Below are positions 1-44,600 of a DNA stretch of 48,073 bases, piece after piece. Positions within the stretch are counted from its first letter, which is position 1; each line of letters begins with the position of its first letter. Origin of the DNA: Bacteroidia bacterium (lineage in GTDB: Bacteria; Bacteroidota; Bacteroidia; AKYH767-A; OLB10); the NCBI GenBank assembly GCA_013001815.1, contig JABDLV010000141.1, forward strand, positions 1 through 48,073, read 5' to 3'. The position numbers and the translations under genes are program-made. The notes beneath the pieces were generated by a model. The model was given only the letters and a program-made list of their open reading frames with translations, did not search any database and had not been told where the DNA came from.

Positions 1-48
1 ATTTTTGACGTTAATTTGACAATTAAATTAAACCAAAAAGCGGAGATA

Positions 49-1311: not shown

Positions 1312-1371
1312 TCACTATATTTAATTTTAGAATTCAACTGATTGTTTAACTGAGAAAAAATTTTTAACACT

Positions 1372-2190: not shown

Positions 2191-2222
2191 ACTTTTCTAA
2201 CCAAAACTAAAACCAAAGAAAG

Positions 2223-3815: not shown

Positions 3816-3840
3816 CTTTAAGCTCTAAAAAGGGGGAATT

Positions 3841-26658: not shown

Positions 26659-28431
26659 CTATTTCTTAGGGGTATAGGTAGTACTCAAAACTTCAAATTC
26701 TGTTCTGCGATTTTTTTGGTGAGCCTCTTCTTTTTCAGCTTCGCTTCCCATTCTACTAATTTCTTTATCGGCAATTCTTAGGTCTTGCTCCCCTCTCCCT
26801 TCTGATGTTAATCTGTCTTCAGGAATTTTCTTAGATATTAAATAATCTACAACCGACTTGGCCCGCCTGTTGGACAATTTTTGGTTATATGGATCTGGCG
26901 CACGTGAATCAGTATGTGCTATTAATTTAATAGTAATGTTTGGATTCTCTTCTAATGTTCTAACTAGATCATCTAATGCAATTTTGGATTCAAATCGCAA
27001 AGTAGCCTTATCTAAATCATAAAATATTTTTGGCAAATCATATTTCTTTCCAACTACAAAAGCCTCCTTTTTAATACGAATTATTTTTTTAAAAGGTGGG
27101 TCTTTAGAAATATCCACATCTTTAAAATTAATCGTCTTTGGGATGTAATCATCCTTCAATGCAGTAATTTTGCATATTAAGTTTGAAGAAATAATATTAG
27201 TCAGTTTTCCCTTGATATCGGTAATACCGCTTGTGCTCCCATCATTACAAGTAGCAATCTTAACTAAAACAGAATCAAGTGGGTTTTCAGTTAAGCTATC
27301 TATAACAGTTATCTCAATAATATTCGGATTATTAGTTCCCTTGAAAAAATAGATGTCGTCATTACCTTTTCCACCTGGACGGTTTGAACAAAAATAGCCA
27401 CTATCACCTTCACTGAAAAAAGTTATTCCAAAATCATCTAAAGGCGAATTTATTGGATCGCCAATATTAACCGGAAAATTCCATTTTCCTAATTCACTGC
27501 GAAACGTCTTATAAATATCTAATCCTCCTAGTCCTTTATGTCCATCAGATGCAAAGTGAAGTGCATCATCAACATTAATAGTCGGAAATATTTCATTGCC
27601 TTCAGTATTTATACCCGGTCCTAGATTTTTTGCGGCACCCCAAGTACCGTCATACAATCTATACCTAACATACAAGTCCATGCCACCTATTCCACCTGGC
27701 ATATCAGAACTAAAAATAAGTCGGTTTCCGTCTTCAGATATTGTTGGGTGAGCACAACTATATTCCGGATGGTTGTATTCAAACTCATTCTTTTTATCCT
27801 TTCTCCATACACCATTCGTTTCAGTGAACGATATTATTATTAAGTTCAATGTATCCTCTGAACTCAAACTGTCATTATTTTGAGTTAAATACATTTTTTT
27901 CCCATTATTAGTGAAGGTTACAACACCATCATGATAATCTGTATTTAAAAGAGAATCTTCAAATATCCATGGAATGCATTTTTCTAAGCTCTCAGGTTTT
28001 GAAAAAGTCTGATCTTCTTTTAGATAACTGCAAAACATATCCATAAGTGGTCTATTATTATTCTTCTTTTGATATTTTATATAATTAGACCTGTTTTTAT
28101 TCGCAGATGCAAAGACAATTCTTGTGCTTACATACTCCTCTGTATCTGTTACAACTATGCTAGGACTAAAGTCATCCTCTTTAGTATTTACACTTATATT
28201 CTTTATTTCATAAGAACCGAAAATATTACTAGCATCATTTTCACCATTAACAAAATCCCCAATTATTTGCTCCTTTGCTTGTAATAGTTCATTAATCTTA
28301 CTTGTCTGCTCTTTTAGTATCTCATTTTTTTTCGCATTAATCTGTTGTGTGATTTGCTCATTACAGGAAAAAGCAAACACAGTTAGTGCTAATACTAAAT
28401 ATTTAAAATATGATACAATTCTGTTTTTCAT
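26659..28431 (-). CDS. PorE-like lipoprotein (PD40 propeller, carboxypeptidase-regulatory-like domain, OmpA_C), lacking TPR; cassette 2
   Basis: Lipobox AFSC; PD40 motifs FSSDMPGGIGGMDLY and SNRPGGKGNDDIY; OmpA HTDSR...LSNRRA...NRRTEF. Confidence 0.88.
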   Translation of the reverse strand: MKNRIVSYFKYLVLALTVFAFSCNEQITQQINAKKNEILKEQTSKINELLQAKEQIIGDFVNGENDASNIFGSYEIKNISVNTKEDDFSPSIVVTDTEEYVSTRIVFASANKNRSNYIKYQKKNNNRPLMDMFCSYLKEDQTFSKPESLEKCIPWIFEDSLLNTDYHDGVVTFTNNGKKMYLTQNNDSLSSEDTLNLIIISFTETNGVWRKDKKNEFEYNHPEYSCAHPTISEDGNRLIFSSDMPGGIGGMDLYVRYRLYDGTWGAAKNLGPGINTEGNEIFPTINVDDALHFASDGHKGLGGLDIYKTFRSELGKWNFPVNIGDPINSPLDDFGITFFSEGDSGYFCSNRPGGKGNDDIYFFKGTNNPNIIEITVIDSLTENPLDSVLVKIATCNDGSTSGITDIKGKLTNIISSNLICKITALKDDYIPKTINFKDVDISKDPPFKKIIRIKKEAFVVGKKYDLPKIFYDLDKATLRFESKIALDDLVRTLEENPNITIKLIAHTDSRAPDPYNQKLSNRRAKSVVDYLISKKIPEDRLTSEGRGEQDLRIADKEISRMGSEAEKEEAHQKNRRTEFEVLSTTYTPKK

Positions 28432-28452
28432 AACAAATGAAACTATACTTAA

Positions 28453-29412
28453 TTAAAAATATCTAATGGATTTAATTCCATAGTCTTTGATAAAATCATA
28501 ACCAAGTGTAAATTCATGAGAACCAATATTGAGGTCGGTGCAATTACAAATATTAAAGTCATAAGAATACCCTAATCTGATTTTAGGCGTGAATTGGTAA
28601 GATGTTAAAAGTGCTATTGCATCTCCGGTTCTATATGAAGATCCAACCCAAATCTTTTTATCTAGTAAAGCATTAATATTTAAATCAAACTCGACAGGAG
28701 AACCATGTACTGTTTTGATCATGATTGTTGGTTTTAATTTAATTTTCTGATTCAAATCAAAAACATAACCTGCAGCTATATAATGATGCCAACTTTCCAT
28801 ATTTACATCACTAACAACTGAATTGTCGCTTAAAGGGTCAATAGCACTTTCAATCAATCTGGGAACAGACCAACCAACATAAAAATTAGATGAGTCAGAA
28901 TAGTAAATTCCAAACCCTGCCCTGGGAACAGATTTACCCGGAGTATCTTCCAAAAATAATGGATCAACCGTTGCACCACCGCAACAATCTAAATCTGAAT
29001 AGTCCTCTTGCAATCGGCCAACACCTCCACTTAATCCAAAGGACAAAATGCTGTTATATGTTACCGGTAATTTATATGCAAATGTTCCATTAACCGTAAA
29101 CAGTTTTGTAATTCCTATTTTTTCATTTAACACAGATAATCCAACTCCAATATTTTTTGATTTAACCGGTGAATGAATAGAAAATGTTTGTGTTTTTGGT
29201 GCACCCTCAATTCCAGTCCATTGATTTCTATACAACAATACGGATGATATAAAATCGTGAGAACCCGCATAAGCCGGATTGATGAACATTTCATTATACA
29301 TATACTGCGTAAACTGCTCATCATATTGTGCACTTGCATTTGATGTTACAAGCACGAATAATATAATTGCGCAAAGAGCAACCTTTAATTTTCCGAATAT
29401 TTTATACATCAT
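28453..29412 (-). CDS. T9SS PorP/SprF family outer membrane protein; cassette 2
   Basis: Q-x4-TQYM...INPAYAG, YRNQWTG, GYSYD, GSHE, C-terminal IRYF; start uncertain (29409-29439). Confidence 0.92.
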   Translation of the reverse strand: MMYKIFGKLKVALCAIILFVLVTSNASAQYDEQFTQYMYNEMFINPAYAGSHDFISSVLLYRNQWTGIEGAPKTQTFSIHSPVKSKNIGVGLSVLNEKIGITKLFTVNGTFAYKLPVTYNSILSFGLSGGVGRLQEDYSDLDCCGGATVDPLFLEDTPGKSVPRAGFGIYYSDSSNFYVGWSVPRLIESAIDPLSDNSVVSDVNMESWHHYIAAGYVFDLNQKIKLKPTIMIKTVHGSPVEFDLNINALLDKKIWVGSSYRTGDAIALLTSYQFTPKIRLGYSYDFNICNCTDLNIGSHEFTLGYDFIKDYGIKSIRYF

Positions 29413-29441
29413 AATTATTTTTTTCAAATAACACATCAATT

Positions 29442-32400
29442 TTATTTTCGTTTTAACAATATGAAACCATTTATAGGCTCACTCCCATCTCCTTTATCAA
29501 ATTCATAATAATAGGTTCCATCATGCAATTCCTTCCCGTTAAGCACAGGTCCGGTATTTGAAGTTCCATCCCATGTATTGTCATATCCAGCCATCTCATA
29601 CACACAATTTCCCCATCTGTTAAATATTCTTAACTCATTCTCCGGATATTCTTCAGCACACTTAATTTCGAGTACATCGCCAATTAAATCACCATTGGGT
29701 GAAAGACATTGAGGCACACATACATCGCAATCACCAGCAACTTTAATAAATACAGTGGCAGTATCACAACATATGGGTATACCGTCATCGCAAATAAGGT
29801 AAACAAGAGTGTCTGGTCCAAGAAAATCAAAAAACGGTATGTAACTAATTTGACCGGTAATATTATCTACAGAAGCTATTCCATTACTCGGAAAGGAAAC
29901 TATGCTTACGGATGTACTATCAACAAAACCATCTACATCAAATGTATCATTCGCTGCTACATTAATATCAATTGCAATGTTCTTATCGGTTGTTACTGAA
30001 TCATCCATCGCAGTTGGGCAATCATTAACTGAATTTACCAATAGTCTCACTGTGGCAGTGTCACAGTTAACAACTAAACATCCGGTATCACACACTGAAT
30101 AAGTAAATGAATCTACACCAAAGTAATTTACTTCAGGTATATAAGTTACAGTTCCCAAAATATTATCAACCGTATAATTTCCTTTTGCCGGAGCATCTAC
30201 AACAACTAAACTTGAGGCATCAATCTTTCCTTCAGGATCAATATCATTAGACAATACAAAAATTGTTACGGGAGTGTCTTCAGCCATACTAGCTGTATCA
30301 TCAATTGCACTAAGAGGCAAATTAATGCAACAATTAATAGTGTCCAATACATTTAATACTAATGTATCAGTACTAATTCCACATTGGTTGCTAATTGTCC
30401 AAACCAGAGTATTAGAACCTGTTGAAAGACCGGTTACCAAAGTAGTAGCGGAATTTGTATCAACAATCATAGCATTACCTGAAATTACCGACCAAACTCC
30501 GTTCTCTCCAGCACCTGGTGCATTAGCACTTAATGAAGTTGTAGTTATGGTATCGCATAATAATTGATCCGCACCGGCATTGGCTATTGGAAGTGGACAA
30601 GACAAAACGGTCAAAATTACGTTTGCCGTATCACAACATACCGGTAGTCCGAAATCACAAACCAAATAACTTAATTGATCATTGCCAATAAATCCTGAAT
30701 TTGGAGTGTATGTGATTTGCCCTGTAATTGGATTTACAGTGGCGACTCCATTTAATGGTCCTGATATAATTGCAACAGAGGATGAATCTAAACCATTATC
30801 ATCTGTATCATTTGCCAATGGATTAAAGGTTATAGCTGTATTCTCCAATGTAGTATCACTATCTGAAACTGCCTGTGGGCACTGATTAACTATAGGTAAT
30901 GAATCTACAACTATGGTAATATTTGCTGAATCACAACACACAGGTAATCCAAAATCACAAACTCTATAACTTAATAGATCATTGCCTACAAAACCAGCAT
31001 TGGGAGTGTATGTGATTTGACCGGTAACCGGATTTACAGTAGCTACGCCATTTATAGGTCCGGATAGAATAACAACAGATGATGGATCCAAACCATTATC
31101 ATCTATATCATTGGCTAACGGGTCAAAAGTGAAAGTTGTATTCTCTAATGTAGTATCGTTATCTGCAACTGCATCTGGGCATTGATTTCCTATTATTATA
31201 GAATCTACTACTATAGTTATGATTGCAGAGTCACAACAAATCGGCATTCCAAAATCGCAAACCGAATAACTTAATTGATCAGTACCCACAAAACCTGCAT
31301 TGGGAGTGTATGTGATTTGTCCCGTAATTGAATTTACTGTGGCTACTCCATTTAAAGGTCCCGCTAGTATTGCAACAGATGAAGGATCTAAACCATTATC
31401 ATCTGTATCATTTGCCAATGGATCAAAAGTGAAAGTTGTATTCTCTAATGTTGTATCAAAATCTGCAACTGCATCTGGACATTGATTCGGCATAGGTATA
31501 GAATCTACTACTATGTTTATGATAGCAGTGTCACAACATACCGGTAATCCAAAATCACAAACCAAATAACTTAATTGTTCATTGCCAACAAAACCTGTAT
31601 TTGGAGTGTACGTAATTTGACCGGTAACCAAATCAACTGTTGCTGCTCCATTAAGAGGTCCTGACAATATTACAACAGATGAAGGATCTAAACCATTATC
31701 ATCTGTATCATTTGCCAATGGATCAAAAGTGAAAGTTGTATTCTCTAATGTTGTATCAAAATCTGCAACTGCATCCGGGCATAGATTATCTATAACTATA
31801 GAATCTACAACTATTGTTACGTTGGCTGAATCACAACATACGGGCACTCCAAAATCGCACACTTTATAACTTAACTGATCAATACCAATGAAACCTGCAT
31901 TTGGTGTGTATGTTATTTGACCGGTAACCGGATCAGCTGTGGCTACTCCATTTAATGGCCCTGATAATATTAGAACTGATGATGGATCTAAACCATTATC
32001 ATCTGTGTCATTGGCTAATGGATTAAATGTGAAAGTTGTATTCACTAATGTTGTATCACTATCTGCTACTGATTGTGGGCATTGATTAACTGCAGGATCT
32101 ATAGTTATTACAACAATTGCTGTATCTGTTCCACCATTGCCATCAGATACTATATAGATTAATGTATCCACCCCAGTAAATCCAGTGTTTGGAGTGTATA
32201 TCACAGAGTCTCCATTTGCCACAATTGCCGTTCCATTATTTGGTCCTGAAATAATTGTGGTTACTAGTGGATCTCCATCCGGGTCTGTATCATTCGCTTG
32301 TACATTAATTGTAACTGGAACTCCTACATTCGTTGATGCAGTGTCATCTATTGCAATCGGTGGATTACCTCCTCCAACTCCTACATTTATTGTTACAACT

Positions 32401-35045
32401 GCAGTATCCAATCCACCATTCCCATCTGACACTACATAGGTCAATATATCAGTTCCAATAAATCCTGGATTCGGAGTGTACACGATCGAATCTCCGTTTA
32501 ACACCGTTGCTGTGCCATTTAATGGTGGGGTTAAAATAGTTGTAACTAGCGGATCTCCATCCGGGTCTGTATCATTGGCTTGTACATTAATTGTAACTGG
32601 AACTCCTACATTCGTTGATGCAGTGTCATCTATAGCAACCGGTAGATTATTTCCTCCTCCAACTCCTACATTTATTGTTACAACTGCAGTATCCAATCCA
32701 CCATTCCCATCTGACACTACATAGATCAATATATCAGTTCCAACAAATCCTGGATTCGGAGTGTACACGATCGAATCTCCGTTTAACACCGTTGCAGTAC
32801 CATTTATTGGTGGAGACAAAATAGTTGTAACTAGTGGATCTCCATCCGGGTCTGTATCATTGGCTTGTACATTAATTGTAATTGGAACTCCTACATTTGT
32901 TGATGCAGTGTCATCAATCGCAACCGGTAGATTATTTCCTCCTACAACTTCTACATTTATTGTTACAACAGCAGTATCCAATCCACCATTCCCATCAGAT
33001 ACAACATAAGTTAATATTTCTATACCTATAAATCCAGGATTCGGAGTGTATGCAATCGAATCTCCGTTAAGCACCGTTGCAGTACCATTTATTGGTCCGG
33101 AAATAATTGTCGTTACTAATGGATCTCCATCAGGATCCGTATCATTGTTTTGTACATTTATTGTAACCGCTGTTCCTTGTGTTGTTGATACAGAATCATC
33201 TATAGCAACCGGTGGATTATTTCCTACTCCTACATTTATTGTCACAACAGCAGTATCTAATCCACCATTCCCATCAGATACAATATAGGTCAATATATCA
33301 GTTCCTAAAAATCCAGGATTTGGAGTGTATACAATCGAATCTCCATTTAACACTGTTGACGTACCATTTATTGGTCCGGAAATAATTGTTGTTACTAATG
33401 GATCTCCATCAGGATCCGTATCATTGTTTTGTACATTTATGGCTATGGCAGCTCCTTGTGTTGTTGATACAAAATCATCTATAGCAACCGGTGGATTATT
33501 AACTGAATTTACAGAAATAAGAACCATTGCAGTATCACAGATTGGAATGGTATTACAGATTACATAACTAAAACTATCAACCCCACTAAAATTTTGATTT
33601 GGTGTATAAGAAATTAAACCGGTTACATTATTTACAGTTACTGTACCATTCAAAGGACCTGAGCTTACGGATAAAGATGAAGTATCAATACTATTGTTGG
33701 GATCAGTATCATTATTAAGCACAGGAATATTAACAATACCTCCTGCATTTACCGAAACAAAATCATCTACTGCATTTGGACCTTGAATACCTCCGGTTGG
33801 ACATATATTGCCATTATCATCAACAAAACCTATTACTAAAAATGTTCCATCCGTACTGTTTTGATCTGGATTTGGATACGAGCCTAAATGTCCAAAATCA
33901 CTTTTTGTTGCATTAATGTTATTTAAAATGTCATCGGAACAACTTGCATGTATATTTGCGTCTTGATTCCCGTTAACTAAAAAATACCAGTCATTTCCAA
34001 TGTTGCCTAAGTTAATCACTAAAATATCTCCAGGATGTGTATTGGTATTGATATAAGGATTAGTTCCACTAGAATTGGGGCCAACACTAACAGTAGCACC
34101 CGGAGGTCCATCATAAATAACGGTCATTTCAACAATTTTCCCATCACAATCACATGGACAAGGAGGCAAGGGAAAAACCGAACCACAACTATTGGGTTGA
34201 CTAAAATCACTTCCACATGGACCTAAAGTATATCCTTCAGATAATTTTTTGCACAAATAAGATTCTTTTACGCATTTCTGAGTGCCATTATCACACATTA
34301 TAATCTTATCTGGATATGAAGGGCAAATAAGACTTACAACTGTAACAGTATGATTTGCGGTAGCTGTTAATCCATTTGCATCTGTTACCGTAACGGTATA
34401 AGATGTGGTTGCTGTTAAATTTATCGCAATGTTTTGAGTAGTAGCACCATTACTCCATAAAAATGAATATGGCGGAGTGCCACTTGTAACTGAACTAGTA
34501 ATAATTGCTGAAGCAGCACCCAACAAACCATTAATTCCACCTGCAGGACAAATATTTCCTTTATCATCTTTATATCCAATTACTAAAAAAGTACCATTGT
34601 TATTGTTCTGATTAGGATTTGGAAAATTTCCAAGACTACCAAAAGAACCATTAGTTGAATTTACGTTATTCAATAAGTCATCAGAACAACTTGTATGGAA
34701 TTGGGCATCAGATGAACCATTGACTGATATGTACCAATTGCTACCTATATTTCCAGCGGCAAGAGATAATGTATCACCTTGTTGTGTATTATTAAATGTT
34801 AATACCGGATTGCTTCCACTAGAATTTGAACTAACTTCAACTGTGGCATTATTCGGCCCGCCATAAATTACTGTTATATCAATAATTTTACCATCACAAT
34901 CACAAGGAGGTGGCCAATAGCCAACTTCTTGATCAGGACAAACACTAATAACCGGTACTGGAAGATTCCCACTACTTGTGTAACCAATTTGGTTAGTACA
35001 AATAAGAAAAATAAAACAAATGAAAACTGAATAAATACGTGCCAT
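29442..35045 (-). CDS. 1867-aa T9SS cargo adhesin (adhesin 2): Cys-rich N-terminal domains, SprB-like repeat, about 13 tandem-95/Big_9-like repeats, type-B (CHU_C) CTD
   Basis: Signal peptide; GTPPYSFLWSNG...YTVTVTDANG; ND-D-DGD / YTPN repeats; CTD SPNGD...IFNRWG..VY...WDG...GTYYY; directly upstream of a PorP/SprF gene. Confidence 0.92.
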   Translation of the reverse strand: MARIYSVFICFIFLICTNQIGYTSSGNLPVPVISVCPDQEVGYWPPPCDCDGKIIDITVIYGGPNNATVEVSSNSSGSNPVLTFNNTQQGDTLSLAAGNIGSNWYISVNGSSDAQFHTSCSDDLLNNVNSTNGSFGSLGNFPNPNQNNNNGTFLVIGYKDDKGNICPAGGINGLLGAASAIITSSVTSGTPPYSFLWSNGATTQNIAINLTATTSYTVTVTDANGLTATANHTVTVVSLICPSYPDKIIMCDNGTQKCVKESYLCKKLSEGYTLGPCGSDFSQPNSCGSVFPLPPCPCDCDGKIVEMTVIYDGPPGATVSVGPNSSGTNPYINTNTHPGDILVINLGNIGNDWYFLVNGNQDANIHASCSDDILNNINATKSDFGHLGSYPNPDQNSTDGTFLVIGFVDDNGNICPTGGIQGPNAVDDFVSVNAGGIVNIPVLNNDTDPNNSIDTSSLSVSSGPLNGTVTVNNVTGLISYTPNQNFSGVDSFSYVICNTIPICDTAMVLISVNSVNNPPVAIDDFVSTTQGAAIAINVQNNDTDPDGDPLVTTIISGPINGTSTVLNGDSIVYTPNPGFLGTDILTYIVSDGNGGLDTAVVTINVGVGNNPPVAIDDSVSTTQGTAVTINVQNNDTDPDGDPLVTTIISGPINGTATVLNGDSIAYTPNPGFIGIEILTYVVSDGNGGLDTAVVTINVEVVGGNNLPVAIDDTASTNVGVPITINVQANDTDPDGDPLVTTILSPPINGTATVLNGDSIVYTPNPGFVGTDILIYVVSDGNGGLDTAVVTINVGVGGGNNLPVAIDDTASTNVGVPVTINVQANDTDPDGDPLVTTILTPPLNGTATVLNGDSIVYTPNPGFIGTDILTYVVSDGNGGLDTAVVTINVGVGGGNPPIAIDDTASTNVGVPVTINVQANDTDPDGDPLVTTIISGPNNGTAIVANGDSVIYTPNTGFTGVDTLIYIVSDGNGGTDTAIVVITIDPAVNQCPQSVADSDTTLVNTTFTFNPLANDTDDNGLDPSSVLILSGPLNGVATADPVTGQITYTPNAGFIGIDQLSYKVCDFGVPVCCDSANVTIVVDSIVIDNLCPDAVADFDTTLENTTFTFDPLANDTDDNGLDPSSVVILSGPLNGAATVDLVTGQITYTPNTGFVGNEQLSYLVCDFGLPVCCDTAIINIVVDSIPMPNQCPDAVADFDTTLENTTFTFDPLANDTDDNGLDPSSVAILAGPLNGVATVNSITGQITYTPNAGFVGTDQLSYSVCDFGMPICCDSAIITIVVDSIIIGNQCPDAVADNDTTLENTTFTFDPLANDIDDNGLDPSSVVILSGPINGVATVNPVTGQITYTPNAGFVGNDLLSYRVCDFGLPVCCDSANITIVVDSLPIVNQCPQAVSDSDTTLENTAITFNPLANDTDDNGLDSSSVAIISGPLNGVATVNPITGQITYTPNSGFIGNDQLSYLVCDFGLPVCCDTANVILTVLSCPLPIANAGADQLLCDTITTTSLSANAPGAGENGVWSVISGNAMIVDTNSATTLVTGLSTGSNTLVWTISNQCGISTDTLVLNVLDTINCCINLPLSAIDDTASMAEDTPVTIFVLSNDIDPEGKIDASSLVVVDAPAKGNYTVDNILGTVTYIPEVNYFGVDSFTYSVCDTGCLVVNCDTATVRLLVNSVNDCPTAMDDSVTTDKNIAIDINVAANDTFDVDGFVDSTSVSIVSFPSNGIASVDNITGQISYIPFFDFLGPDTLVYLICDDGIPICCDTATVFIKVAGDCDVCVPQCLSPNGDLIGDVLEIKCAEEYPENELRIFNRWGNCVYEMAGYDNTWDGTSNTGPVLNGKELHDGTYYYEFDKGDGSEPINGFILLKRK
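30610..32090 (-). repeat. Five tandem 300-bp (100-aa) coding repeats, each with four Cys
   Basis: Matching blocks at 30781, 31081, 31381, 31681 and 31981; 31373-31475 is identical to 31673-31775. Confidence 0.92.
32095..33510 (-). repeat. Five tandem ~279-285-bp Cys-free coding repeats
   Basis: Recurring NDTDPDGDPLVTTI...NGDS..YTPN...SDGNGG.DTA units. Confidence 0.9.
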
Positions 35046-35486: not shown

Positions 35487-37661
35487 TTATTCAACCGACA
35501 AAATTTTAAATTCTGTACGCCTGTTTGCTTGGTGTTCGGCTTTACTACATTTTACACCGTTACTACATTGGTTAGTTAACACTTTTTCACCATATCCTTT
35601 GGCTACCATTCTCGAATTAACTATGCCTTTGGATACCAAGTATGCTACGGCAGATTTAGCTCTGTTATCAGATAGTCTTTCATTATAAGCATCACTTCCT
35701 CTACTATCAGTGTGTGATCTTAATTCAATTTTTAAACCAGAATAATCATTCATGGTTAATACAAGCTTATCTAATTCAATTGCTGCGTCAGGCCTAATGT
35801 AATATTTGTCTAAGTCATAATAAATATTGTCTATTCTAATAATATCTCCTACGCAAAACATCTCTAGATTTATTGCGAATTCTTTTTCCCCAATTATGTT
35901 TTTAGTTGATATAAATTCTTCATTGGATGTACATCCATCTTTTACTCCCACAATTTTGTAGTCTGAATTTGGCAATAGATCAAAGTGGTATTTGCCATCC
36001 GGGCCTGCTGTGTATTCTCTCACAGAATTATCAGATGTATTTAGTAAAGTAATCTTAACAACAACGTCTTTCATTGGTGCACCATCAAATTTGGTACTAA
36101 CCGCACCACTCACAGAAATATTTGCAACTTTTTCTAATGGAATTTTAATAAAGGGTTTATTATCTCTATCATATTCTGTTGAAGCAAGAGAAGCTATGCC
36201 TTCTTGATAACCCTCTTTGTTAGCTTTGAAATCGAAATTCTGATTTAATTCAACTTCTTTAAATACTTTACCATCTGTTCCTGTAGTTAATCCTTCAGTA
36301 TTTGAAACATTCTCTACAATCTGAACCAATACTTTATCTAGTGGCTCGTTGGTCTCTTTATCATAAACCAACACTTCCAAATTAACCGGCATGTTCAATC
36401 TTTCAAATGCATAAATATCATCACCTCCCTTACCACCTGGTCTATCAGAACTAAAATACCCTCCATCATTATTAGAGTTTAAAATGATTCCAAAATCATC
36501 ATATTTCGTGTTAACCGGATTTCCCACATTAACAGGCGAACTCCATTCACCCGAAGTATTTCTTATAAAATAATTGTCTAATCCACCCAAGCCTTTGTGT
36601 CCGTTAGAAGCAAAGTATAGTGTTTTGTCATCATGCAAAAAGGGGAAAATCTCATTTCCTTTTGTATTAACTTTTGGACCTAAATTCACTGGAAGCCCCC
36701 ATCCGCTTTCTGTTCTCTCACATACATACAAATCCATACCACCTTCTCCATTTGGCATATCAGAACTAAAATAAAGCTTAGTCCCATCAGCAGAAACTGC
36801 CGGATGTGCCATGTGATAATCATGGTTGTTGTATTGAAATTCCACAGGATTTCCCCATCCAGTTTTATTTTTATGTGAAGAGAATATTTTCAATTTCACA
36901 ATGTCTCTTTCACTTTTATATACTTTTCCTTTGACAATATTATTTCTGGTAAAAAACATTGTATTACCATCTCCGGTAAATGTAACAGCTCCATCATGGT
37001 ACTTGGTTTGAACAGATTTTAGAAACAACTCAGGATTAGAGAGCTCATGTTTTTGCCCTACACTAAAATAAATTTTACTAAACGGTTTATCGTTCCAGGC
37101 ATGATTGTATTGCACAAAACTTTCATTAACCCTATTGGAAGCAAATACAAGACCCTTTCCATATAGTGTTGGACTAAAATCATCCTCCTTTGAATTAATC
37201 TCTAAGTTTTTAATGGTGTAAGAATCTTTATTAGCAAAGAAATTATCTAAGTTCTTAATTGACTCTACAAAAATTCCACCTCGTTCATCTTGTGCTTGAG
37301 AAGCACTATAAGTATCTAACCAAGTTTGTGCTTGCTCATACTTTCCATTTCTCATTAATGCTTGTCCGTAATACAAGCGATTAATTGGTTTTGCATCAGG
37401 CAATTTTACCACCTTGGCATACCATAATTCTGCTTCTTCACTTTGATTTGTTAATCTATAACAATCTGCAAGCCTTGACAATACTTCAGTATTAGCAGAA
37501 TCTTTACCAGCCACCATATTGTATTTTTCAATAGCTTGGATATAAGCCATTTGATTATACAGTTTATGTGCCTGGTAGGTTATTGGCTTGCTGCATGAAA
37601 ACAGAAACCCAATTAATACCACTACTAATATTTTCGATTTAATTACCATTTGATTATTCAT
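35487..37661 (-). CDS. PorE-like lipoprotein (TPR, PD40, two carboxypeptidase-regulatory-like domains, OmpA_C); cassette 1
   Basis: Lipobox LFSC; TPR LADCYRL...AELWYAK...YGQAL; PD40 motifs; HTDSRGS...GYGE...NRRTEF; ATG at 37661 or 37649 preferred over 37733. Confidence 0.92.
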   Translation of the reverse strand: MNNQMVIKSKILVVVLIGFLFSCSKPITYQAHKLYNQMAYIQAIEKYNMVAGKDSANTEVLSRLADCYRLTNQSEEAELWYAKVVKLPDAKPINRLYYGQALMRNGKYEQAQTWLDTYSASQAQDERGGIFVESIKNLDNFFANKDSYTIKNLEINSKEDDFSPTLYGKGLVFASNRVNESFVQYNHAWNDKPFSKIYFSVGQKHELSNPELFLKSVQTKYHDGAVTFTGDGNTMFFTRNNIVKGKVYKSERDIVKLKIFSSHKNKTGWGNPVEFQYNNHDYHMAHPAVSADGTKLYFSSDMPNGEGGMDLYVCERTESGWGLPVNLGPKVNTKGNEIFPFLHDDKTLYFASNGHKGLGGLDNYFIRNTSGEWSSPVNVGNPVNTKYDDFGIILNSNNDGGYFSSDRPGGKGGDDIYAFERLNMPVNLEVLVYDKETNEPLDKVLVQIVENVSNTEGLTTGTDGKVFKEVELNQNFDFKANKEGYQEGIASLASTEYDRDNKPFIKIPLEKVANISVSGAVSTKFDGAPMKDVVVKITLLNTSDNSVREYTAGPDGKYHFDLLPNSDYKIVGVKDGCTSNEEFISTKNIIGEKEFAINLEMFCVGDIIRIDNIYYDLDKYYIRPDAAIELDKLVLTMNDYSGLKIELRSHTDSRGSDAYNERLSDNRAKSAVAYLVSKGIVNSRMVAKGYGEKVLTNQCSNGVKCSKAEHQANRRTEFKILSVE

Positions 37662-37683
37662 GGTTGTTCTTTTTTTAAGTTTT

Positions 37684-38640
37684 TTAGAAATATCTAATTG
37701 ATGAAATACCTTTTTTCTTGAAGTTAAAATCATATCCTAAGGAAATTTCATGTGAACCCGAAGTATGGTTACCTATATCCGTTATTGTATAATCATATGA
37801 ATATCCAATCCTAAATTGTGGTGATACATTTAAGGAACTAATTAATGCTATAGCATCACCGGTTCTATAGGAAGCACCAACCCAAATTATCTCGTTTATT
37901 AATGCATTCACATTAAAGTCCCATTCAACTGGAGCCCCAAATACTGCTTTAGTCATAATGGTAGGTTTAAGTTTTAAATTTTCTGACACAGGAAAAACAT
38001 ATCCCGCAGTAATATAATTGTGCCAGTTTTTTAAATTGACTTCATTGTTCACCTCAAAGTTATTTGTAGGGTCAATAGAACTTTCAATTAACCTTGGAAT
38101 TGACCATCCAACATAAAAACTGGGCTTCTGGTAATACATTCCAAAACCAGCCTTAGGAGCCATTTTGGTTGGAGTATCTTGCATAAATAAAGGATCAATA
38201 TTTACCCCATCCACAGGTGTTAATTCAGATAAGTTTTCTTGCAAACTGGTAAATCCACCTTGCAGTCCAAAAGAAAGAATTGCATCGTCACTAACCGGTA
38301 ATCGATAAGCATATGTACCCATAACAGAAAACTTTTTGGTTACCCCAATTTCTTCATTCATAATCGACATACCCAAACCAATTTTTTTCTTTTTTAGAGG
38401 AGCATGTATTGTAAACGTTTGCGTAGTAGGAGCTCCATCAATACCAACCCATTGGTCTCGGTAAAGCGCGAAAGTAGAAATGTAATCTCTAGACCCGGCA
38501 TACCCAGGGTTAATGAACATTTCATTATTCATATACTGCGAAAACATAGGATCATACTGCGCATTTGCATCTGACTTCGTCAGACAGAAAATTATACCTA
38601 TGAACATTACAATTTTTAAACTTCTTTTGAACTCTTTCAT
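37684..38640 (-). CDS. T9SS PorP/SprF family outer membrane protein; cassette 1
   Basis: ANA-Q signal cleavage; FSQYM..INPGYAG, YRDQWVG, GYSYD, GSHE, IRYF. Confidence 0.94.
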   Translation of the reverse strand: MKEFKRSLKIVMFIGIIFCLTKSDANAQYDPMFSQYMNNEMFINPGYAGSRDYISTFALYRDQWVGIDGAPTTQTFTIHAPLKKKKIGLGMSIMNEEIGVTKKFSVMGTYAYRLPVSDDAILSFGLQGGFTSLQENLSELTPVDGVNIDPLFMQDTPTKMAPKAGFGMYYQKPSFYVGWSIPRLIESSIDPTNNFEVNNEVNLKNWHNYITAGYVFPVSENLKLKPTIMTKAVFGAPVEWDFNVNALINEIIWVGASYRTGDAIALISSLNVSPQFRIGYSYDYTITDIGNHTSGSHEISLGYDFNFKKKGISSIRYF

Positions 38641-38680: not shown

Positions 38681-41600
38681 TTACTTACGTTTTATTACTA
38701 CAAATCCGGCTTTTGATTTATTTCCATCTCCAAGATCCAACACATAGTAGTATGTTCCATCCGGTAAATCATCTCCAATAACCAGTAATCCTGCATTGGC
38801 TTTACCATCCCAACTGTTATCGTATCCTTTCTTCTCGTACACTACATTACCCCATCTGTTGAAAATCTTCAATACATTGTTTGGATAATTTTCTATTCCA
38901 TCAATAACCCAGAAATCATAAATTAAATCACCATTCGGGGAGAATGCATTCGGAACAAACACATTTGTTTCTATTACAGGAAGAACATTAATGTAGATAG
39001 TGGCAGTATCACATAAAACAGGACTACCATTATCACATATCACATATGTGATACTGTCAATTCCAAAGAAATTCGGATTAGGAACATAGGTAATAACACC
39101 TGTAATTGGGTCTACTGTGGCAGTTCCATTAGTAGGACCTCCAATTATATTTACCGTAGTTGGATCAACACTACCATCAAGGTCATAATCATTTCCATCA
39201 ACAGTAATGTCTTTAGGACTTCCTTGCTGTGCCATAACAGTATCATTAACCGCTACAGGTGGGTCATTCACCGGCAATACAGTAATAATTACTACAGCTG
39301 TATCGCAATATATTGGAGTTCCTAAGTCACATATTACATAGGTAAATGTATCTGTTCCAAAGAAATCCATATTAGGTATGTAGGTAATTGCACCCGTAAT
39401 TGGATCAACAATCGTCATACCATTATTTGGACCACCAATTACTGTAACTGACGTTGGATCAATATTACCATCTGCATCAAAATCATTTGACAATACAGAA
39501 ATGGTAATAGGTGTGTCTTCATTTGTAGTATCTGCATCATCAACCGCTATTGGAGGATTATTAACAGCCCCAACAGTTATAAATATAGTTGCAGTATCAC
39601 ACAATACAGGAGCTCCAGAATCACAGACCACATACACAATTGTATCAACTCCGTTAAAGTAAGGTGCAGGTGTATAAGTGATTTGACCAGTAACAGGATC
39701 TACCGTTGCAGTACCATTATTTGGTCCGCCAATAATACCAACAGAACCAGGATCAATTCCACCCTCTATATCTGTATCATTCACCAACGGATCAATTACA
39801 ACAGCAGCTCCCTCATTTGTATTAACCGTATCATCAACTGCCACTGGTGGATCATTAACTGGATTTACAGTGATAATCAATAATGCTGTATCGCACAATA
39901 CGGGTGCTCCGGAATCACAAATCTGATAAACAATGGTATCAACACCATTAAAGTTGCTATTTGGGGTATACGTAATATTTCCAGTAGCTGCGTTTACAAG
40001 AGCTGTTCCATTATTTGGAGCAGATATAATAGTTACAGATAGCGTATCAAGGTTTCCATCTAAATCAGTGTCATTTGTTGATACTGACACAGTGATAGGG
40101 TTGTCTTCATTAACGGTAACAGCATCATTTACTGCAATCGGTGGGTCATTAACAGGAAGCACATTTATATATACCGTTGCAGAATCGCAGTATATTGGCA
40201 TTCCAGTATCACAGAACTGATAAACAAGAGAATCCACTCCATTAAAGTTTGGATTTGGAGTATATAAAATTTCTCCTGTAACAGTATCTAATACAGCTGT
40301 ACCATTCAACGGCCCACTCACTATAGAAATTGAAGAAGTATCTATATTATTATCCGGATCAAAATCATTTGACAGTACAGAAATTGTAACAGGTGTGTCT
40401 TCATTTGTACTAACCGTATCGTTAACCACAACAGGTGGTACATTGCTTAATGTAACATTAATTGTAACTACAGCAGTATCGCAGTAAACCGGAAGTCCTA
40501 AATCACAAACTACGTAGGTAAACGTATCTATTCCACCAAAGGTCAATGATGGAGTGTATGTTACATCCCCTGTAATTGGGTCAACGGTTACAGTTCCATT
40601 AGTAGGACCATTAATTACATTTACTGATGTGACGTCTATATTACCTTCTACATCTGTGTCATTGGCAAGAACTGCAACAACTATTGGTGTGTTTGATAAC
40701 GTAGAGTCAATATCATCAACCGCTATAGGTGGATCATTCACCGGAATAATATTTATAACTGTGAATGCTGTATCGCAATTACCAAGTGAATCACAAACAG
40801 AGTAATAGAGCGTATCTAATCCGTTATAATTTGTATTTGGTATATAAACCAAGCTGCCATCAGCTGCTAAAGTGGCTGTTCCATTACTTGGACCTCCAAC
40901 AACTGTAACAATCAATGAATCACCATTAGGGTCATAATCATTAGCTAATACATTTACATAAGCAGTATCTTCTTCTTGAATATTCACTTGCTCATTAGAT
41001 GCAACAGGCCCTATATTTATTATAGGTATAGTTACAGTTACAAGAGCAGTATCACACAATCCAGGAATTCCATTATCACAAACCATGTAGTAGAATGAGT
41101 CAATTACTGAATTTACCCCTGTAAATGGAGTATAGATTATTGAATCACCGTTTAATACTGTTACAGTTCCGTAGTTTGGATTCTGAATTACAAATGTTGA
41201 TAATGTATCACCATCCGGATCAGAATCATTAAACTGAACATCAATTATAGTTGATGTATTTGGAGGAGTAATCGCTGCATCATCATTTGCTATTGGTGGG
41301 TCATTCTCATTTTCTATAGTAATCACCCAAATAGATGTGTCACAATAAACAGGAACTCCCGCATCACAAACCACATAAGTGATTGTGTCGTACCCAAAGA
41401 ATCCGAAGTTTGGTAAATAGGATGCAAGGCCGGAAGCTGAGTTGATGTTAGCAAGCCCATTTGACGGACCACCAATCATGGTTACTGTTGCAATATTATT
41501 GTTAGGATCTGTATCATTTGCAAGAACATTTGTACTCACAGGTATATTTTGATCTGTTGTTGATGTATCCATATTAGCAACAGGTGGAAGATTAATAAAT

Positions 41601-44600
41601 CCAACCAGTATGCTTACGGTGGCAGTGTCACAATAAATAGGTGTGCCATTATCGCAAATTACATATTGCAAGCTATCAAGACCATTGTATCCGAATGTTG
41701 GACTATACAATATATTTCCAGTACCTGGCTGAACAAATGCGATTCCATTTGATGGCGCACTAATTATAGTAATGGAGTTTGTATCTAAATCCATCTCAGG
41801 ATCAATATCATTTACTATTACAGCAATGGTATCAATCATATTCATGGCAACAGTTACGGTATCATTAACAGCAATTATTGGTGAATTAACCGGAATTATT
41901 GTTATAATTTGCCAAGCAGTGTCACAATTAATTGGATAACCAGTATCGCAAATAACATATTGCAATGAATCTAGTCCATTGTAATTAGTATTTGGCGTGT
42001 AAGTAATATCACCTGTAATTGGATCTACAGCAACTGTACCATTCAAAGGTAAAGTGCTAACAGAAACACTGGTGATATCTAAATTGCCATCTACATCACT
42101 ATCATTAGTTGCTGTAGCCAAAATAACTGGCGTATTCTCATTTGTTGATGCAGTATCTACAATAGCTATAGGTGGATCATTAACTGGTAATACATCTATG
42201 ATTACTATTGCCGTATCACATAAACCTGAAGAATCACAAGCCAGATACGTTATGGTATCACCTCCATTGTAGTTTGCATTTGGTGCATAGGTAATCGTAC
42301 CATCGCCATTGTTTATAGCAGAACCATTACTTGGTCCGCCAATTATCACCACACCCATAGAATCACCATTTGCATCAAAATCATTTACTATAACATCAAT
42401 TGTTCCAGTAGAGTCTTCAGATACCGTAAGATTATCATCAACTGCAATTGGTGGTAGATTAGTATTTGGTACTATTACATACACGGTTGCAGTATCACAT
42501 CCCTGAGGTACACCATTGTCGCAAATAACATATACAATTGTATCAATTCCACTTAAGAATGTAACATTAGGAGTATACACAATACTATCTCCATTACTAA
42601 CTGAGGCAACTCCGTTAAATGGGCCTGAAATTATAGTAGTAGTCAATGTATCACCATCTGGATCTATATCATTATTTTGTACATCAATATTTACTGGTAC
42701 TCCTGGGTCAGCAGTAGCATAATCATCTACAGCTATAGGATCATCATTAATTGGATCAACTATGAACAAAATAGTAGCTGTATCACAGTATACAGGCATT
42801 CCGGTATCGCATATCACATATACAGCACTATCCAAACCACTGAAGTCAGCATTTGGTGTGTAAGTAACCTCACCTGTTGATGAATTAACAGTTAATATTC
42901 CATTTACAGGTAGTGTTATAATATTGATACTACTAGTATCTAAATTATTGTCAATATCAATATCGTTTATTATAATACTTGCAGTAACAGAAGAGTCTTC
43001 ATTTACTGAAATAGTATCATTCACGGCAATAATCGGATCATTAACCGGAATTACAGTTATAAATATGGTAGCAGTATCACAATATATCGGCATACCTGAA
43101 TCACAAACTGAATACACAATGGTGTCCAATCCAACAAAGTTTGCAGTTGGAGTATAGCTTATGTTTCCAGTAATTGGATCTATCACAACACTTCCATTTG
43201 AAGGACCTGAATTCACAGTGATACTTGCAGGATTGATATTATTATCAGGGTCGATATCATTTACCGAAGGATTGAATATAACAGCAGAGTCCTCTGCTGT
43301 TGTAATCATATCATCAACTGCTATCAATGAGTCATTAACATCTATTACATTAATGATTACAGTTGCGGTATCGCAATAAACCGGTATTCCAAAGTCACAT
43401 ATCAGATAATCAAAGCTATCCAAACCAACATATCCGATACTTGGGGTGTAGGTCACAATTCCTGTTATAGGATCTACACTTACAGAACCATTCGAAGGAT
43501 TTGTTATCACCGTTACACTTGTAACATTCAAGTTTGAATCCACATCATAATCATTTGCAGGTACATTTATAGCAACCGGAATATCTTGATTGGTTGCTAC
43601 TGTATCATTTATCGCAACTGGTGGGTCATTAGCAGGAGTAACAGTAATAGTTACAACAGCTGTATCACACAGTACCGGTATTCCATTATCACAAACTACA
43701 TATGCAAATGAATCAACTCCATTAAAGTTGGCATTTGGTGTATATAGATATGAACCATCACTATTTAATACTAGCGTTCCATTAAACGTACCAAATACCG
43801 GAGTGGTATTTACAAATAAAGAATCTCCATCCGGATCTGTATCATTAGATAACACAGTGAATCCATTTAATGGGGTATCTTCAGAAGTACTTGCTGCATC
43901 ATCAACAGCCATTGGGTTGAAGTTTATATCCAACACATTAATTAGCACTAAGCCGGTATCGCAATAAATTGGAATTCCTTGGTCACATAACACATAGTAC
44001 AATGAGTCCATTCCCACAAAGAAAGGATTAGGGTTGTATGTAAGAAGCCCGGTAACAGGATCAAATACTGCTGTACCATTATATGGACCCATTATTACAT
44101 TTACACTACTTGAATCAATATTGCCGTCTACATCAATATCGTTAGCCAAAATCGCATAGGATACTGGTGAGTTTTCTGTTGTAGAGGTAGAATCCATTAT
44201 TGCAATAGGTGGATCATTAACCGGATTAACAGTCATATACACTAGAGCAGTATCACAAGCATTAAATGCATCACAAATAATATAAGTCAAAGTATCAAAT
44301 CCGTAAAAATCCGGATTTGGAACATAGGATATACTGTCTCCATTGATTACAGTTGCAGTACCATTCACACTTGGAACTACAATTATGGTTAACAATGAAT
44401 CTCCATCAATATCAAAATCATTTGCTTGAACATTTACTATTATTGAATCATCTTCATTTAACATCACGGTATCATTAACTGCAACCGGTGCATCATTTAC
44501 TCCACCAATATCAATATATACGAATGCTGTATCACATGCCGCAAAAGGATCGCATATTACATAAACTAAAGTGTCAAATCCGTTGTATGAAGGATTTGGT

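What the first reader, a model, noticed from the sequence alone, without database searches (positions are those of the whole stretch)
28453..29735. Coordinated cysteine gain in the CTD and its cognate PorP in cassette 2: a possible disulfide or metal-based cargo-shuttle specificity code
Seen: the cassette-1 CTD (NVFVPNAFSPNGD...DGIEN...WGNVVY) and mature PorP1 contain no Cys. The aligned cassette-2 CTD has five (GDCDVCVPQCLSPNGD, IKCAEE, WGNCVY). PorP2 has four, in two segments: DLDCCGG (28981-28986; PorP1 ELTPVDG) and NICNCTD (28540-28548; PorP1 TITDIGN). Established: type-B CTD proteins need the co-encoded PorP/SprF-like protein (SprB/SprF paradigm). Inference: these segments are surface loops, and CC plus CNC form inter-loop disulfides or a Cys4 metal site. 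The odd Cys count in the CTD might allow a covalent or redox-controlled cargo-shuttle link that keeps the two paralogous systems insulated. I do not know of a described example.
Basis: partly seen in the sequence, partly recalled or inferred. Interest (0 to 1): 0.75.

Follow-up and report, generated by a model that had tools for sequence, protein, structure and literature searches.

The report
Cysteine patch at cargo–carrier docking face
One of two neighbouring type IX secretion adhesin cassettes carries unusual cysteines on both its cargo signal domain and its outer-membrane carrier, at spots predicted to touch, so the cargo may be tied to its carrier by a disulfide bond.

Summary
Mature PorP2 has four Cys (CC at 28981-28986, CNC at 28540-28548) and CTD2 has five; PorP1 and CTD1 have none. 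Both genes are bona fide PorP/SprF and type-B CTD members, in adhesin/PorP/PorE-like cassettes.

New evidence:
- A complex model (ipSAE 0.81, best control 0.01) puts both PorP2 Cys loops and three of the five CTD2 Cys in the docking interface.
- C1773/C1796 match an ordinary intradomain staple of type-B CTDs.
- CC is invariant in a small PorP clade of single origin. CNC is labile (0, 1 or 2 Cys among close relatives), so a fixed CC+CNC unit is not supported.
- The sister lineage's probable cognate CTD keeps Cys at the same two interface positions (13 and 51).
- None of 130 other cargo/carrier pairs has Cys at any of these sites.
- In those 130 pairs, PorP position 153 and CTD position 13 are the second strongest co-varying pair of 28,324. 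In cassette 2 both are Cys.

Best reading (about 0.45): a carrier–cargo disulfide, C153–C1776, made by thiol-disulfide exchange. It would parallel the published SprF–GldK link but sit on the cell surface. Intrachain-only disulfides remain a serious rival. No coordinates or wet data were available.

The parts
28453..29439 (-). PorP2, a PorP/SprF-family outer-membrane carrier of cassette 2. The likely true start is the ATG at 29409, and the mature protein begins at about Q38.
   Evidence: PF11751 E 7.9e-76. TIGR03519 269.8 bits against a cut-off of 90.55. AF2 model with pLDDT 78.5. Foldseek hits to FadL and to PorV 8gl6_F, TMq 0.60. The start is judged from relatives.
28981..28986 (-). Vicinal Cys152-Cys153 (DLDCCGG) in predicted surface loop L3 (residues 146-168).
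   Evidence: Searches give the residues. They are invariant in 7 of 7 clade members. Residues 150-153 are in the predicted interface, and 150/151 touch CTD position 16. Position 153 co-varies with CTD position 13.
28540..28548 (-). Cys298-Asn-Cys300 (NICNCTD) in predicted surface loop L7 (residues 297-305). The two Cys replace a family-conserved Thr/Ser and a family-conserved Leu.
   Evidence: Searches give the residues. Residues 298-303 are in the predicted interface. In 130 family pairs, position 298 is T 65 / S 37 and position 300 is L 99 / I 17. The loop is labile among relatives.
29445..29756 (-). CTD2, the type-B (CHU_C) sorting domain plus linker, the last 104 aa of adhesin 2. Cys lie at domain positions 10, 13, 17, 33 and 51, which are residues 1773, 1776, 1780, 1796 and 1814.
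   Evidence: PF13585 E 1.2e-24 and TIGR04131 54.4 bits against a cut-off of 35. AF2 model with pLDDT 91.2. Positions 13, 17 and 51 are in the predicted interface. Positions 10 and 33 match the common staple.
29442..35045 (-). Adhesin 2, 1867 aa, a tandem-95/Big_9 repeat protein. It has 57 Cys (3.05%) and seven vicinal CC.
26659..28431 (-). PorE-like OmpA-family protein of cassette 2 (PD40 plus OmpA_C domains). It lacks the N-terminal part seen in the cassette-1 copy.
   Evidence: PF00691 and PF07676. NF052230 PorE at 330 bits, below its cut-off of 600, matching profile positions 146-608.
37684..38640 (-). PorP1, the carrier of cassette 1. It has no mature Cys and carries V at position 153.
38681..48073 (-). 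Adhesin 1 (5' end outside the window) with CTD1. It has no Cys in the CTD, F at CTD position 13, and 0 CC in 3130 aa.
35487..37733 (-). PorE-like protein of cassette 1 (TPR, PD40, CarboxypepD_reg and OmpA domains).

Best explanation
SHOWN. Cassette 2 is an ordinary three-gene unit: a type-B-CTD adhesin, its PorP/SprF carrier and a PorE-like peptidoglycan anchor. What is unusual is a lineage-specific set of cysteines on the two faces that are predicted to dock.

INFERRED MECHANISM. CTD2 sits on the extracellular mouth of the PorP2 barrel. Its first strand (positions 13-17, holding C1776 and C1780) lies against loop L3 of PorP2 (holding C152 and C153). The position pair PorP-153 / CTD-13 is a partner-discriminating contact throughout the family: hydrophobic with hydrophobic, polar or basic with acidic. 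In this clade it has become Cys/Cys.

I think the most likely working is as follows.
1. C152-C153 is oxidised to a strained vicinal disulfide during carrier biogenesis.
2. After export, the thiol of CTD C1776 attacks it.
3. The result is a carrier-cargo disulfide (C153-C1776) that locks this non-mobile, wall-anchored adhesin to its own carrier and not to the paralogous one.

This is the chemistry published for SprF CxC with GldK Cys343, moved to the cell-surface side and to the cargo.

Other cysteines: C1773-C1796 is the ordinary intradomain staple. C298, C300, C1780 and C1814 are later, less constrained additions to the same interface. They may add a second link or local disulfides.
For: 1. 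Family and architecture are established.

2. Complex model.
- ipSAE was 0.81, 0.80 and 0.81 in three runs, against a best control of 0.01.
- That mark was reached by 116 of 157 solved complexes and 2 of 215 mismatched pairs. The counts hold only roughly, because my own alignments were used.
- The runs agree in at least 91% of contacts, and partner pLDDT is at least 79.
- The interface lists PorP2 150-153 and 298-303, and CTD 13-17 and 45-52.
- PorP 150/151 with CTD 16 are among the lowest-error contacts.
- All seven loops in the interface are odd-even strand loops, opposite the termini, so they are on the surface side.

3. Covariation in 130 other, Cys-free pairs.
- (PorP 153, CTD 13) ranks 2 of 28,324 inter-protein position pairs by APC-corrected MI.
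- It ranks 7 with 91 representatives below 80% identity, and 42 with 63 representatives below 65%.
- The pairings are chemically sensible: Q-D 20, I-I 10, H-F 6, Y-E 5, R-E 4, F-F 4.
- It is the top partner for each of the two positions.
- 11 of the top 50 MI pairs fall in the predicted interface, against 3.7 expected. These include (150,17), (152,15) and (162,17).
- Cassette 1 has V/F at this pair.

4. Conservation.
- CC is invariant in 7 of 7 clade members down to 53% identity.
- The clade has a single origin: 93/81 support, and 94% of bootstrap trees need one change.
- Adhesin P0128 shares the contig length 56,253 and the source label of PorP P0012. Its CTD, and fragment P0125, carry Cys at positions 13 and 51, plus 26.

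5. Rarity.
- 0 of 130 pairs have Cys in PorP loops 146-168 or 297-305, or at CTD positions 13, 17, 26 or 51.
- Only P0125, of 149 CTD representatives, has them.

6. Two of the seven clade PorPs (P0007, P0008) have three mature Cys, an odd number that cannot all pair within the chain.

7. Precedent. A strained CxC donor disulfide in SprF is attacked by a partner thiol (PMC12635249, sections 6, 7, 8 and Discussion read).
Against: - No coordinates were available, so no S-S distance was measured. The interface comes from one prediction method, and the tool itself warns that a pass is not proof.
- MI is inflated by shared ancestry. Several top pairs, such as (254,43), (313,70) and (315,11), lie outside the predicted interface.
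- The Cys co-occurrence goes back to a single ancestral event, so it is one data point.
- The neighbourhood of P0012 and P0128 is inferred from equal contig length and source name. It was not seen directly.
- In the sister lineage the CC sits two residues further along the loop.
- The whole adhesin of this clade is Cys-rich, with recurrent vicinal CC: 7 in adhesin 2, 6 in P0128, 0 in adhesin 1. CTD Cys gains may therefore be part of a cassette-wide trend.
- With the last repeat counted, local Cys numbers are even: 8 here and 6 in P0128. All could pair within the cargo chain.
- Cargo folds in the periplasm, where a free thiol could be oxidised before export.
- Across 130 pairs, Cys counts of partners do not correlate.
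Confidence: 0.45

Rival explanations
1. Intrachain disulfides only. The vicinal C152-C153, C298-x-C300, and the CTD Cys (paired among themselves or with the extra Cys of the last repeat) each close within their own chain. They stiffen and reshape the docking surfaces. Pairing with the carrier stays non-covalent, and the Cys contribute to discrimination only by shape.
For: - The local motifs CC, CxC and CxxxC can close on themselves.
- Cys counts are even when the last repeat is included: 3+5 here, 3+3 in P0128.
- C1773/C1796 match an intradomain staple: 32 of 32 representatives with Cys at position 33 also have one at 10-11.
- Periplasmic oxidation normally makes intramolecular bonds (Discussion of PMC12635249).
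- Loop-B Cys come and go among relatives at 77-83% identity.
Against: - P0007 and P0008 have three mature Cys.
- It does not explain why both partners turned exactly the co-varying contact pair 153/13 into Cys.
- It does not explain why these positions are never Cys in 130 other pairs and 148 other representatives.
- Conserved vicinal disulfides are rare (recalled, not tested).
Confidence: 0.3
2. Metal clasp. Thiolates from both chains (for example CC or CNC of PorP2 with CxxC, C1773/C1776, or C1780 of CTD2) bind a shared Zn or Cu ion at the interface.
For: - CxC, CC and CxxC motifs face a common predicted interface.
- Adhesin 2 also carries CDCDGK motifs.
- Inter-protein zinc clasps built from CxC plus CxxC are known elsewhere (recalled, not tested).
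Against: - The site is extracellular, in organisms from aerated beach-sand metagenomes, where thiolates tend to oxidise.
- The number of available Cys differs between lineages (2+3 against 4+5), and loop B is labile.
- No His or Asp pattern was examined.
Confidence: 0.07
3. No pair-specific role. The Cys in PorP2 and CTD2 are by-products of a cassette-wide enrichment of Cys, serving another purpose such as adhesin cross-linking, substrate binding or stability, or they are nearly neutral.
For: - Adhesin 2 and P0128 have 3.05% and 3.15% Cys with 7 and 6 vicinal CC. Adhesin 1 has 1.34% and 0 CC.
- There is no general correlation of Cys counts between partners.
- Loop-B Cys are labile.
Against: - CC is invariant across the clade in an otherwise variable loop.
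- All four PorP2 Cys fall in the 49 of 292 residues listed as interface.
- They replace family-conserved residues: T/S 298 and L 300 in PorP, L 51 and G 17 in the CTD.
Confidence: 0.15

Closest known systems
Type-B CTD substrate with cognate PorP/SprF-like shuttle (SprB/SprF, Fjoh_3952/Fjoh_3951 and others; PMC12618676 outline and passages read; PMC9143113 passages read)
   Same: - The gene order is adhesin then PorP-like gene.
- The CHU_C/TIGR04131 signal and the PF11751 barrel are both present.
- A high-confidence predicted cognate complex is obtained. The paper reports AF3 ipTM above 0.8 for cognate pairs; here ipSAE is 0.81.
- Paralogous pairs coexist in one cell and need discrimination.
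   Different: Neither paper mentions disulfides ('disulfide' occurs 0 times in each). Here both partners carry clade-specific Cys at the predicted contact.
SprF-GldK and PorG-GldK disulfide coupling (Liu et al. 2025, PMC12635249)
   Same: - A PorP/SprF-family carrier uses closely spaced Cys.
- A strained donor disulfide made during biogenesis is attacked by a partner thiol, giving a load-bearing intermolecular bond.
   Different: - There the CxC is in the periplasmic C-tail and the partner is the track lipoprotein GldK.
- The C-tail of PorP2 (IKDYGIKSIRYF) has no Cys.
- The CC and CNC of PorP2 are in predicted surface loops, and the proposed partner is the cargo CTD.
- The motif here is CC as well as CxC.
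PorE-PorP-PG1035 complex of P. gingivalis (Gorasia et al. 2022, PMC9143113)
   Same: - A three-part unit is present: type-B cargo, PorP-like barrel and PorE-like OmpA protein.
- The authors propose that non-mobile type-B cargo is tied to the cell wall through PorP-PorE.
- Both cassettes here have a PorE-like gene.
   Different: - Anchoring there is described as binding.
- The PorE-like proteins here score below the NCBIfam PorE cut-off.
GhpA grappling-hook protein of Aureispira (PDB 9flp and others)
   Same: - Its C-terminus is the only solved-chain sequence match to the type-B CTD profile (E 4e-20).
- It has Cys near CTD positions 12 and 33, like the common staple.
   Different: It has no Cys at positions 13, 17 or 51. 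No carrier complex was examined, and I saw only the sequence alignment, not the structure.

Membership tests
PorP/SprF family (PF11751, TIGR03519) | Profile match above the curated cut-off over the full length | tested here: met
   PorP2 scores PF11751 255.6 bits (cut-off 22.3) and TIGR03519 269.8 bits (cut-off 90.55). PorP1 scores 278.5 and 287.2 bits.
PorP/SprF family | FadL/PorV-like 14-strand outer-membrane barrel | tested here: met
   The AF2 model has pLDDT 78.5 and a strand pattern compatible with 14 strands. Foldseek best hits are FadL (E 1e-09) and PorV chains 8gl6_F and 6h3i_F (TMq 0.60).
PorP/SprF-like cognate shuttle | Encoded directly downstream of a type-B CTD gene and predicted to bind that CTD | tested here: met
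   The gap is 2 nt (29439 to 29442). Complex ipSAE is 0.81 against a best control of 0.01. This is a prediction, not a binding assay.
Type-B CTD (PF13585 CHU_C, TIGR04131) | C-terminal profile match above the cut-off, ending at the protein's C-terminus | tested here: met
   CTD2 scores 86.6 bits (cut-off 27) and 54.4 bits (cut-off 35). CTD1 scores 105.1 and 65.4 bits.
PorE (NF052230) | Full-length match above the NCBIfam cut-off, with TPR, beta-propeller, CRD and OmpA_C domains | tested here: inconclusive
   Scores are 330 and 394 bits against a cut-off of 600. PD40 and OmpA domains are present in both copies; TPR and CarboxypepD_reg only in the cassette-1 copy. I therefore call them PorE-like.
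SprF-type twin-cysteine track coupling (Liu et al. 2025) | Cys-Xaa-Cys in the periplasmic C-terminal tail after the last strand | tested here: not met
   The tails after the last strand, IKDYGIKSIRYF (PorP2) and NFKKKGISSIRYF (PorP1), have no Cys. CNC lies before the last strand in loop 297-305, on the side that binds the CTD.
Disulfide-linked cargo-carrier pair (proposed here) | A DTT-sensitive covalent adduct, or S-S distance compatible with a bond | not testable with these tools
   No tool returned coordinates. Only interface residue lists were available.
Common type-B CTD intradomain staple | Cys at position 10-11 together with Cys at position 33 | tested here: met
   CTD2 has C at positions 10 and 33. 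Of 149 representatives, 32 have Cys at 33, and all 32 also have Cys at 10-11. The bond itself is inferred.

The most novel reading that the evidence does not exclude
The cassette is a thiol-based, covalently closed load chain. The vicinal-CC repeats of the adhesin are reactive disulfides that bond to substrates or to each other. The CTD is disulfide-locked to the carrier's vicinal CC by exchange at the cell surface. The carrier is tied to peptidoglycan by the PorE-like protein. The 153/13 contact would then act as a programmable code whose Cys/Cys setting gives an orthogonal, covalent pairing that insulates paralogous T9SS cassettes.
Probability: 0.15. Interest if true: 0.85.

Novelty: new variant of a known kind. 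Interest (0 to 1): 0.6.

Why it matters
How type-B T9SS cargo is held on the cell surface, and how cells keep many paralogous cargo/carrier pairs apart, are open questions. Paillat et al. [quoted passage not shown]

This locus contributes two things:
- A candidate partner-discriminating contact (carrier loop L3 position 153 with CTD position 13), supported by covariation across 130 pairs.
- A natural case in which that contact is Cys/Cys.

The second point makes a covalent cargo-carrier link directly testable with the same NEM-trapping gels that revealed the SprF-GldK bond. If confirmed, it would extend disulfide coupling in the T9SS and gliding apparatus from the periplasmic track to the outer face of the cell.

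Tried and rejected
1. Reading the cognate CTDs of the closest CC-bearing PorPs (P0006-P0008, P0013, P0014) was not possible.
- Their contigs are short and not in the collections I could fetch.
- The search for related loci returned nothing above 47% identity in genome contigs. In metagenome contigs the best was a 57% PorP1-like hit.
- The genome search over 61 relatives and over 83 genomes of the family, queried with P0012, found no closer copy.

2. A short-length search with the 152-aa tail found only two proteins.

3. A PDB sequence search with the PorP profile gave only designed Kelch-like proteins matching a 28-residue stretch. These hits are spurious.

4. Laying public contigs gave little.
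- Identical pieces occur in four beach-sand runs of three studies.
- The two divergent contigs do not settle the Cys codons. One covers 28646-28803, which holds no Cys loop. The other covers 29441-29618 and shows no listed difference at 29604-29606, but that place is within 14 nt of the contig end.

5. The parity ('odd Cys') argument was dropped once the CC of the last repeat was counted.

6. A general link between Cys count in the carrier and in the CTD was rejected: Spearman -0.10, p 0.25, n=130, and relatives are not independent.

7. The pair (PorP 300, CTD 51) is each position's best or near-best partner, but only weakly: ranks 741 and 2088 in the reduced sets. I do not rely on it.

8. The first look-up of earlier findings returned nothing.
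Full report
WHAT IS THERE

The window (contig C124 of a 2.69 Mb, 266-contig assembly) carries two tandem cassettes on the minus strand.
- Cassette 2: adhesin 29442-35045, PorP2 28453-29439, PorE-like gene 26659-28431.
- Cassette 1: adhesin 38681-48073 (5' end outside the window), PorP1 37684-38640, PorE-like gene 35487-37733.

Both PorPs match PF11751 and TIGR03519 far above cut-off. Both adhesin tails match CHU_C (PF13585) and TIGR04131. The third genes have PD40 and OmpA domains and resemble PorE, but score below its curated cut-off. The gldK-gldL-gldM-gldN genes lie at the other end of the window.

THE OBSERVATION

- Mature PorP2 has four Cys: CC at 28981-28986 and CNC at 28540-28548.
- CTD2 has five: residues 1773, 1776, 1780, 1796 and 1814.
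- Mature PorP1 and CTD1 have none.
- Against 130 other pairs the background is 0.17% Cys in mature PorPs and 0.93% in CTDs.
- No other CTD had three or more Cys.
- The true start of PorP2 is probably the ATG at 29409.

WHERE THE CYSTEINES SIT

An AF2 model of PorP2 has pLDDT 78.5 and resembles FadL and PorV. By strand parity, residues 146-168 and 297-305 are loops on the side opposite the termini, which is the cell-surface side.

A complex prediction of PorP2 (37-328) with the last 104 aa of adhesin 2 gave the following.
- ipSAE was 0.81, 0.80 and 0.81, against a best control of 0.01.
- That mark was reached by 116 of 157 solved complexes and 2 of 215 mismatches. The counts hold only roughly, because I supplied my own alignments.
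- The runs share at least 91% of contacts, and partner pLDDT is at least 79.
- The interface lists PorP2 150-153 and 298-303, and CTD positions 13-17 and 45-52.
- All four PorP2 Cys and three CTD Cys (positions 13, 17 and 51) are therefore in the predicted interface. Positions 10 and 33 are not listed.
- PorP 150/151 with CTD 16 is among the lowest-error contacts.

This is a prediction, and no coordinates were returned, so no Cys-Cys distance could be measured.

WHICH CYSTEINES ARE ORDINARY

Among 149 CTD representatives from a 1.84-billion-protein library:
- 32 have Cys at position 33, and all 32 also have Cys at position 10-11.
- CTD2 C1773/C1796 fit this common staple.
- Only one representative, P0125, has Cys at positions 13, 26 and 51.

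EVOLUTION

Of 122 aligned PorPs (PorP2, PorP1 and the 120 best of 2,322 hits), eight have the loop-A CC: PorP2, its own duplicate entry P0005, P0006-P0008 and P0012-P0014. In this set, 79 have no mature Cys.

The seven distinct CC bearers form one clade, sister to the Cys-free PorP1 group. Support is 93/81, and 94% of bootstrap trees need a single change. CC is invariant in the clade.

Loop B is labile.
- P0006, P0012, P0013 and P0014 have no Cys there.
- P0007 and P0008 have only C300.
- PorP2 has both C298 and C300.

A fixed CC+CNC unit is therefore not supported, and P0007 and P0008 have an odd number of mature Cys (three).

On the cargo side, P0128 is an adhesin on a contig of the same length (56,253) and the same source label as PorP P0012. 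P0128 and fragment P0125 carry Cys at CTD positions 13, 26 and 51. Positions 13 and 51 are thus shared with CTD2. The neighbourhood of P0012 and P0128 could not be checked directly.

RARITY AND WHAT THE CYS REPLACE

I compiled 130 unique, complete CTD/PorP pairs: 73 from genome contigs, 14 from related genomes (one of them, L103, from an unpublished genome) and 43 from metagenomes.
- None has Cys in either PorP loop or at CTD positions 13, 17, 26 or 51.
- The Cys replace conserved residues: PorP 298 is T/S in 102 of 130, PorP 300 is L/I in 116, CTD 51 is L/I/V in 103, and CTD 17 is G in 90.
- Cys counts of partners do not correlate (Spearman -0.10, p 0.25). There is no general Cys code.

COVARIATION

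In the same 130 Cys-free pairs I computed APC-corrected mutual information for all 292 x 97 inter-protein position pairs.
- (PorP 153, CTD 13) ranks 2 of 28,324.
- It ranks 7 with 91 representatives below 80% identity, and 42 with 63 representatives below 65%.
- It is the best partner for each of the two positions.
- The pairings are sensible: Q-D 20, I-I 10, H-F 6, Y-E 5, R-E 4, F-F 4.
- Eleven of the top 50 pairs lie in the predicted interface, against 3.7 expected (p about 9e-4, not corrected for relatedness). They include (150,17), (152,15) and (162,17).
- Cassette 1 has V/F at this pair. The third cassette of the genome has W/E. Cassette 2 and its sister lineage have C/C.
- MI is inflated by shared ancestry, and some top pairs are outside the interface. 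I treat this as good but not conclusive support for a direct 153/13 contact.

MECHANISM

Liu et al. (PMC12635249; sections 6, 7, 8 and the Discussion read) showed three things.
- SprF, a PorP-family carrier, has a CxC in its periplasmic tail.
- The two Cys form a strained donor disulfide.
- GldK Cys343 attacks that disulfide to give a load-bearing intermolecular bond.

PorP1 and PorP2 lack Cys in that tail, so they are not members of that coupling class.

By analogy I propose the following, at about 0.45 confidence.
1. The vicinal C152-C153 acts as the donor.
2. CTD C1776 (position 13) attacks it after export.
3. The adhesin becomes covalently locked to its own carrier.

Gorasia et al. (PMC9143113, passages read) proposed that cargo with a PorE-like neighbour is non-mobile and wall-anchored. 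A covalent link would fit such a load-bearing role.

Rivals:
- intrachain disulfides only (0.30)
- a metal clasp (0.07)
- a by-product of cassette-wide Cys enrichment (0.15)

The last rival rests on a real finding. Adhesin 2 and P0128 have about 3.1% Cys with seven and six vicinal CC in their repeats. Adhesin 1 has none in 3,130 aa.

PRINT STATUS

Three literature searches were run.
- 'type B CTD' with 'PorP': 31 papers.
- 'type IX secretion' with 'disulfide' and 'SprF': 8 papers.
- 'T9SS' with 'disulfide bond' and 'carrier protein': 4 papers.

They turned up only the SprF/PorG-GldK work. The two type-B shuttle papers do not contain the word disulfide. Supplementary figures of PMC12618676, which hold the AF3 models, were not seen.

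VERDICT

This is a new variant of a known kind of system, and it is directly testable.

Noticed in passing
window 16-4695 (+): gldK (FGE-sulfatase fold, lipoprotein Cys in LMLASCGN), gldL, gldM and gldN form a row at the start of the window. The core T9SS/gliding motor-track genes therefore lie about 22 kb from the two adhesin cassettes. This GldK has several Cys, and I did not map them to Cys343 of F. johnsoniae.
   Followed up: partly
window 29442-35045 (-), adhesin 2; also protein P0128: The Big_9/tandem-95 repeats of adhesin 2 carry a recurrent C-x7-CC-[DE] motif with three Cys per repeat. There are seven CC in all, plus CDCDGK motifs near the N-terminus. The lineage-B adhesin P0128 has six CC, and adhesin 1 has none in 3130 aa. 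This is a cassette-wide vicinal-cysteine signature of unknown role.
   Followed up: partly
window 26659-28431 (-) versus 35487-37733 (-): The PorE-like protein of cassette 2 (590 aa) matches only positions 146-608 of the PorE profile and lacks the TPR and CarboxypepD_reg hits of the cassette-1 copy (748 aa). The start of the cassette-1 copy overlaps the end of PorP1 by 50 nt, so its true start may lie further downstream.
   Followed up: no
window 29407-29439 (-): The listed TTG start of PorP2 is probably wrong. Relatives P0006, P0008 and P0012-P0014 start at the Met that aligns with residue 11 (ATG at 29409).
   Followed up: partly
own genome G000: C11:15213-16148 (-), C11:39917-40993 (+), C79:6459-7520 (+): Only five PorP/SprF paralogues were found in the 88%-complete assembly, against about 21 type-B CTD proteins. 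None has a SprF-like CxC tail. The C79 copy has two Cys 11 residues apart in its C-tail (DCRPRKRRTRVIRCPQF).
   Followed up: partly
own genome G000: C210:3445-5532 (+), C8:8896-11997 (+): Two orphan type-B CTDs, with no adjacent PorP, carry a CxC just before the domain plus one Cys near position 33 (CTC...HAC and DCNC...SNC). Three-Cys CTDs therefore exist without a Cys-bearing neighbour carrier.
   Followed up: no
L084 (G051:C36:242783-246727): A PorP relative (47% identity) has Cys at aligned positions 34, 117, 243 and 277. None is in loops L3 or L7, and position 34 is probably in the leader. Its cognate CTD has only the common upstream Cys. This is a counter-example to any simple rule that a Cys-rich carrier goes with a Cys-rich CTD.
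   Followed up: partly
window 28440-29800: Contig pieces identical to this stretch occur in four laid beach-sand metagenome runs from three studies. Five other runs hold part of its words.
   Followed up: partly
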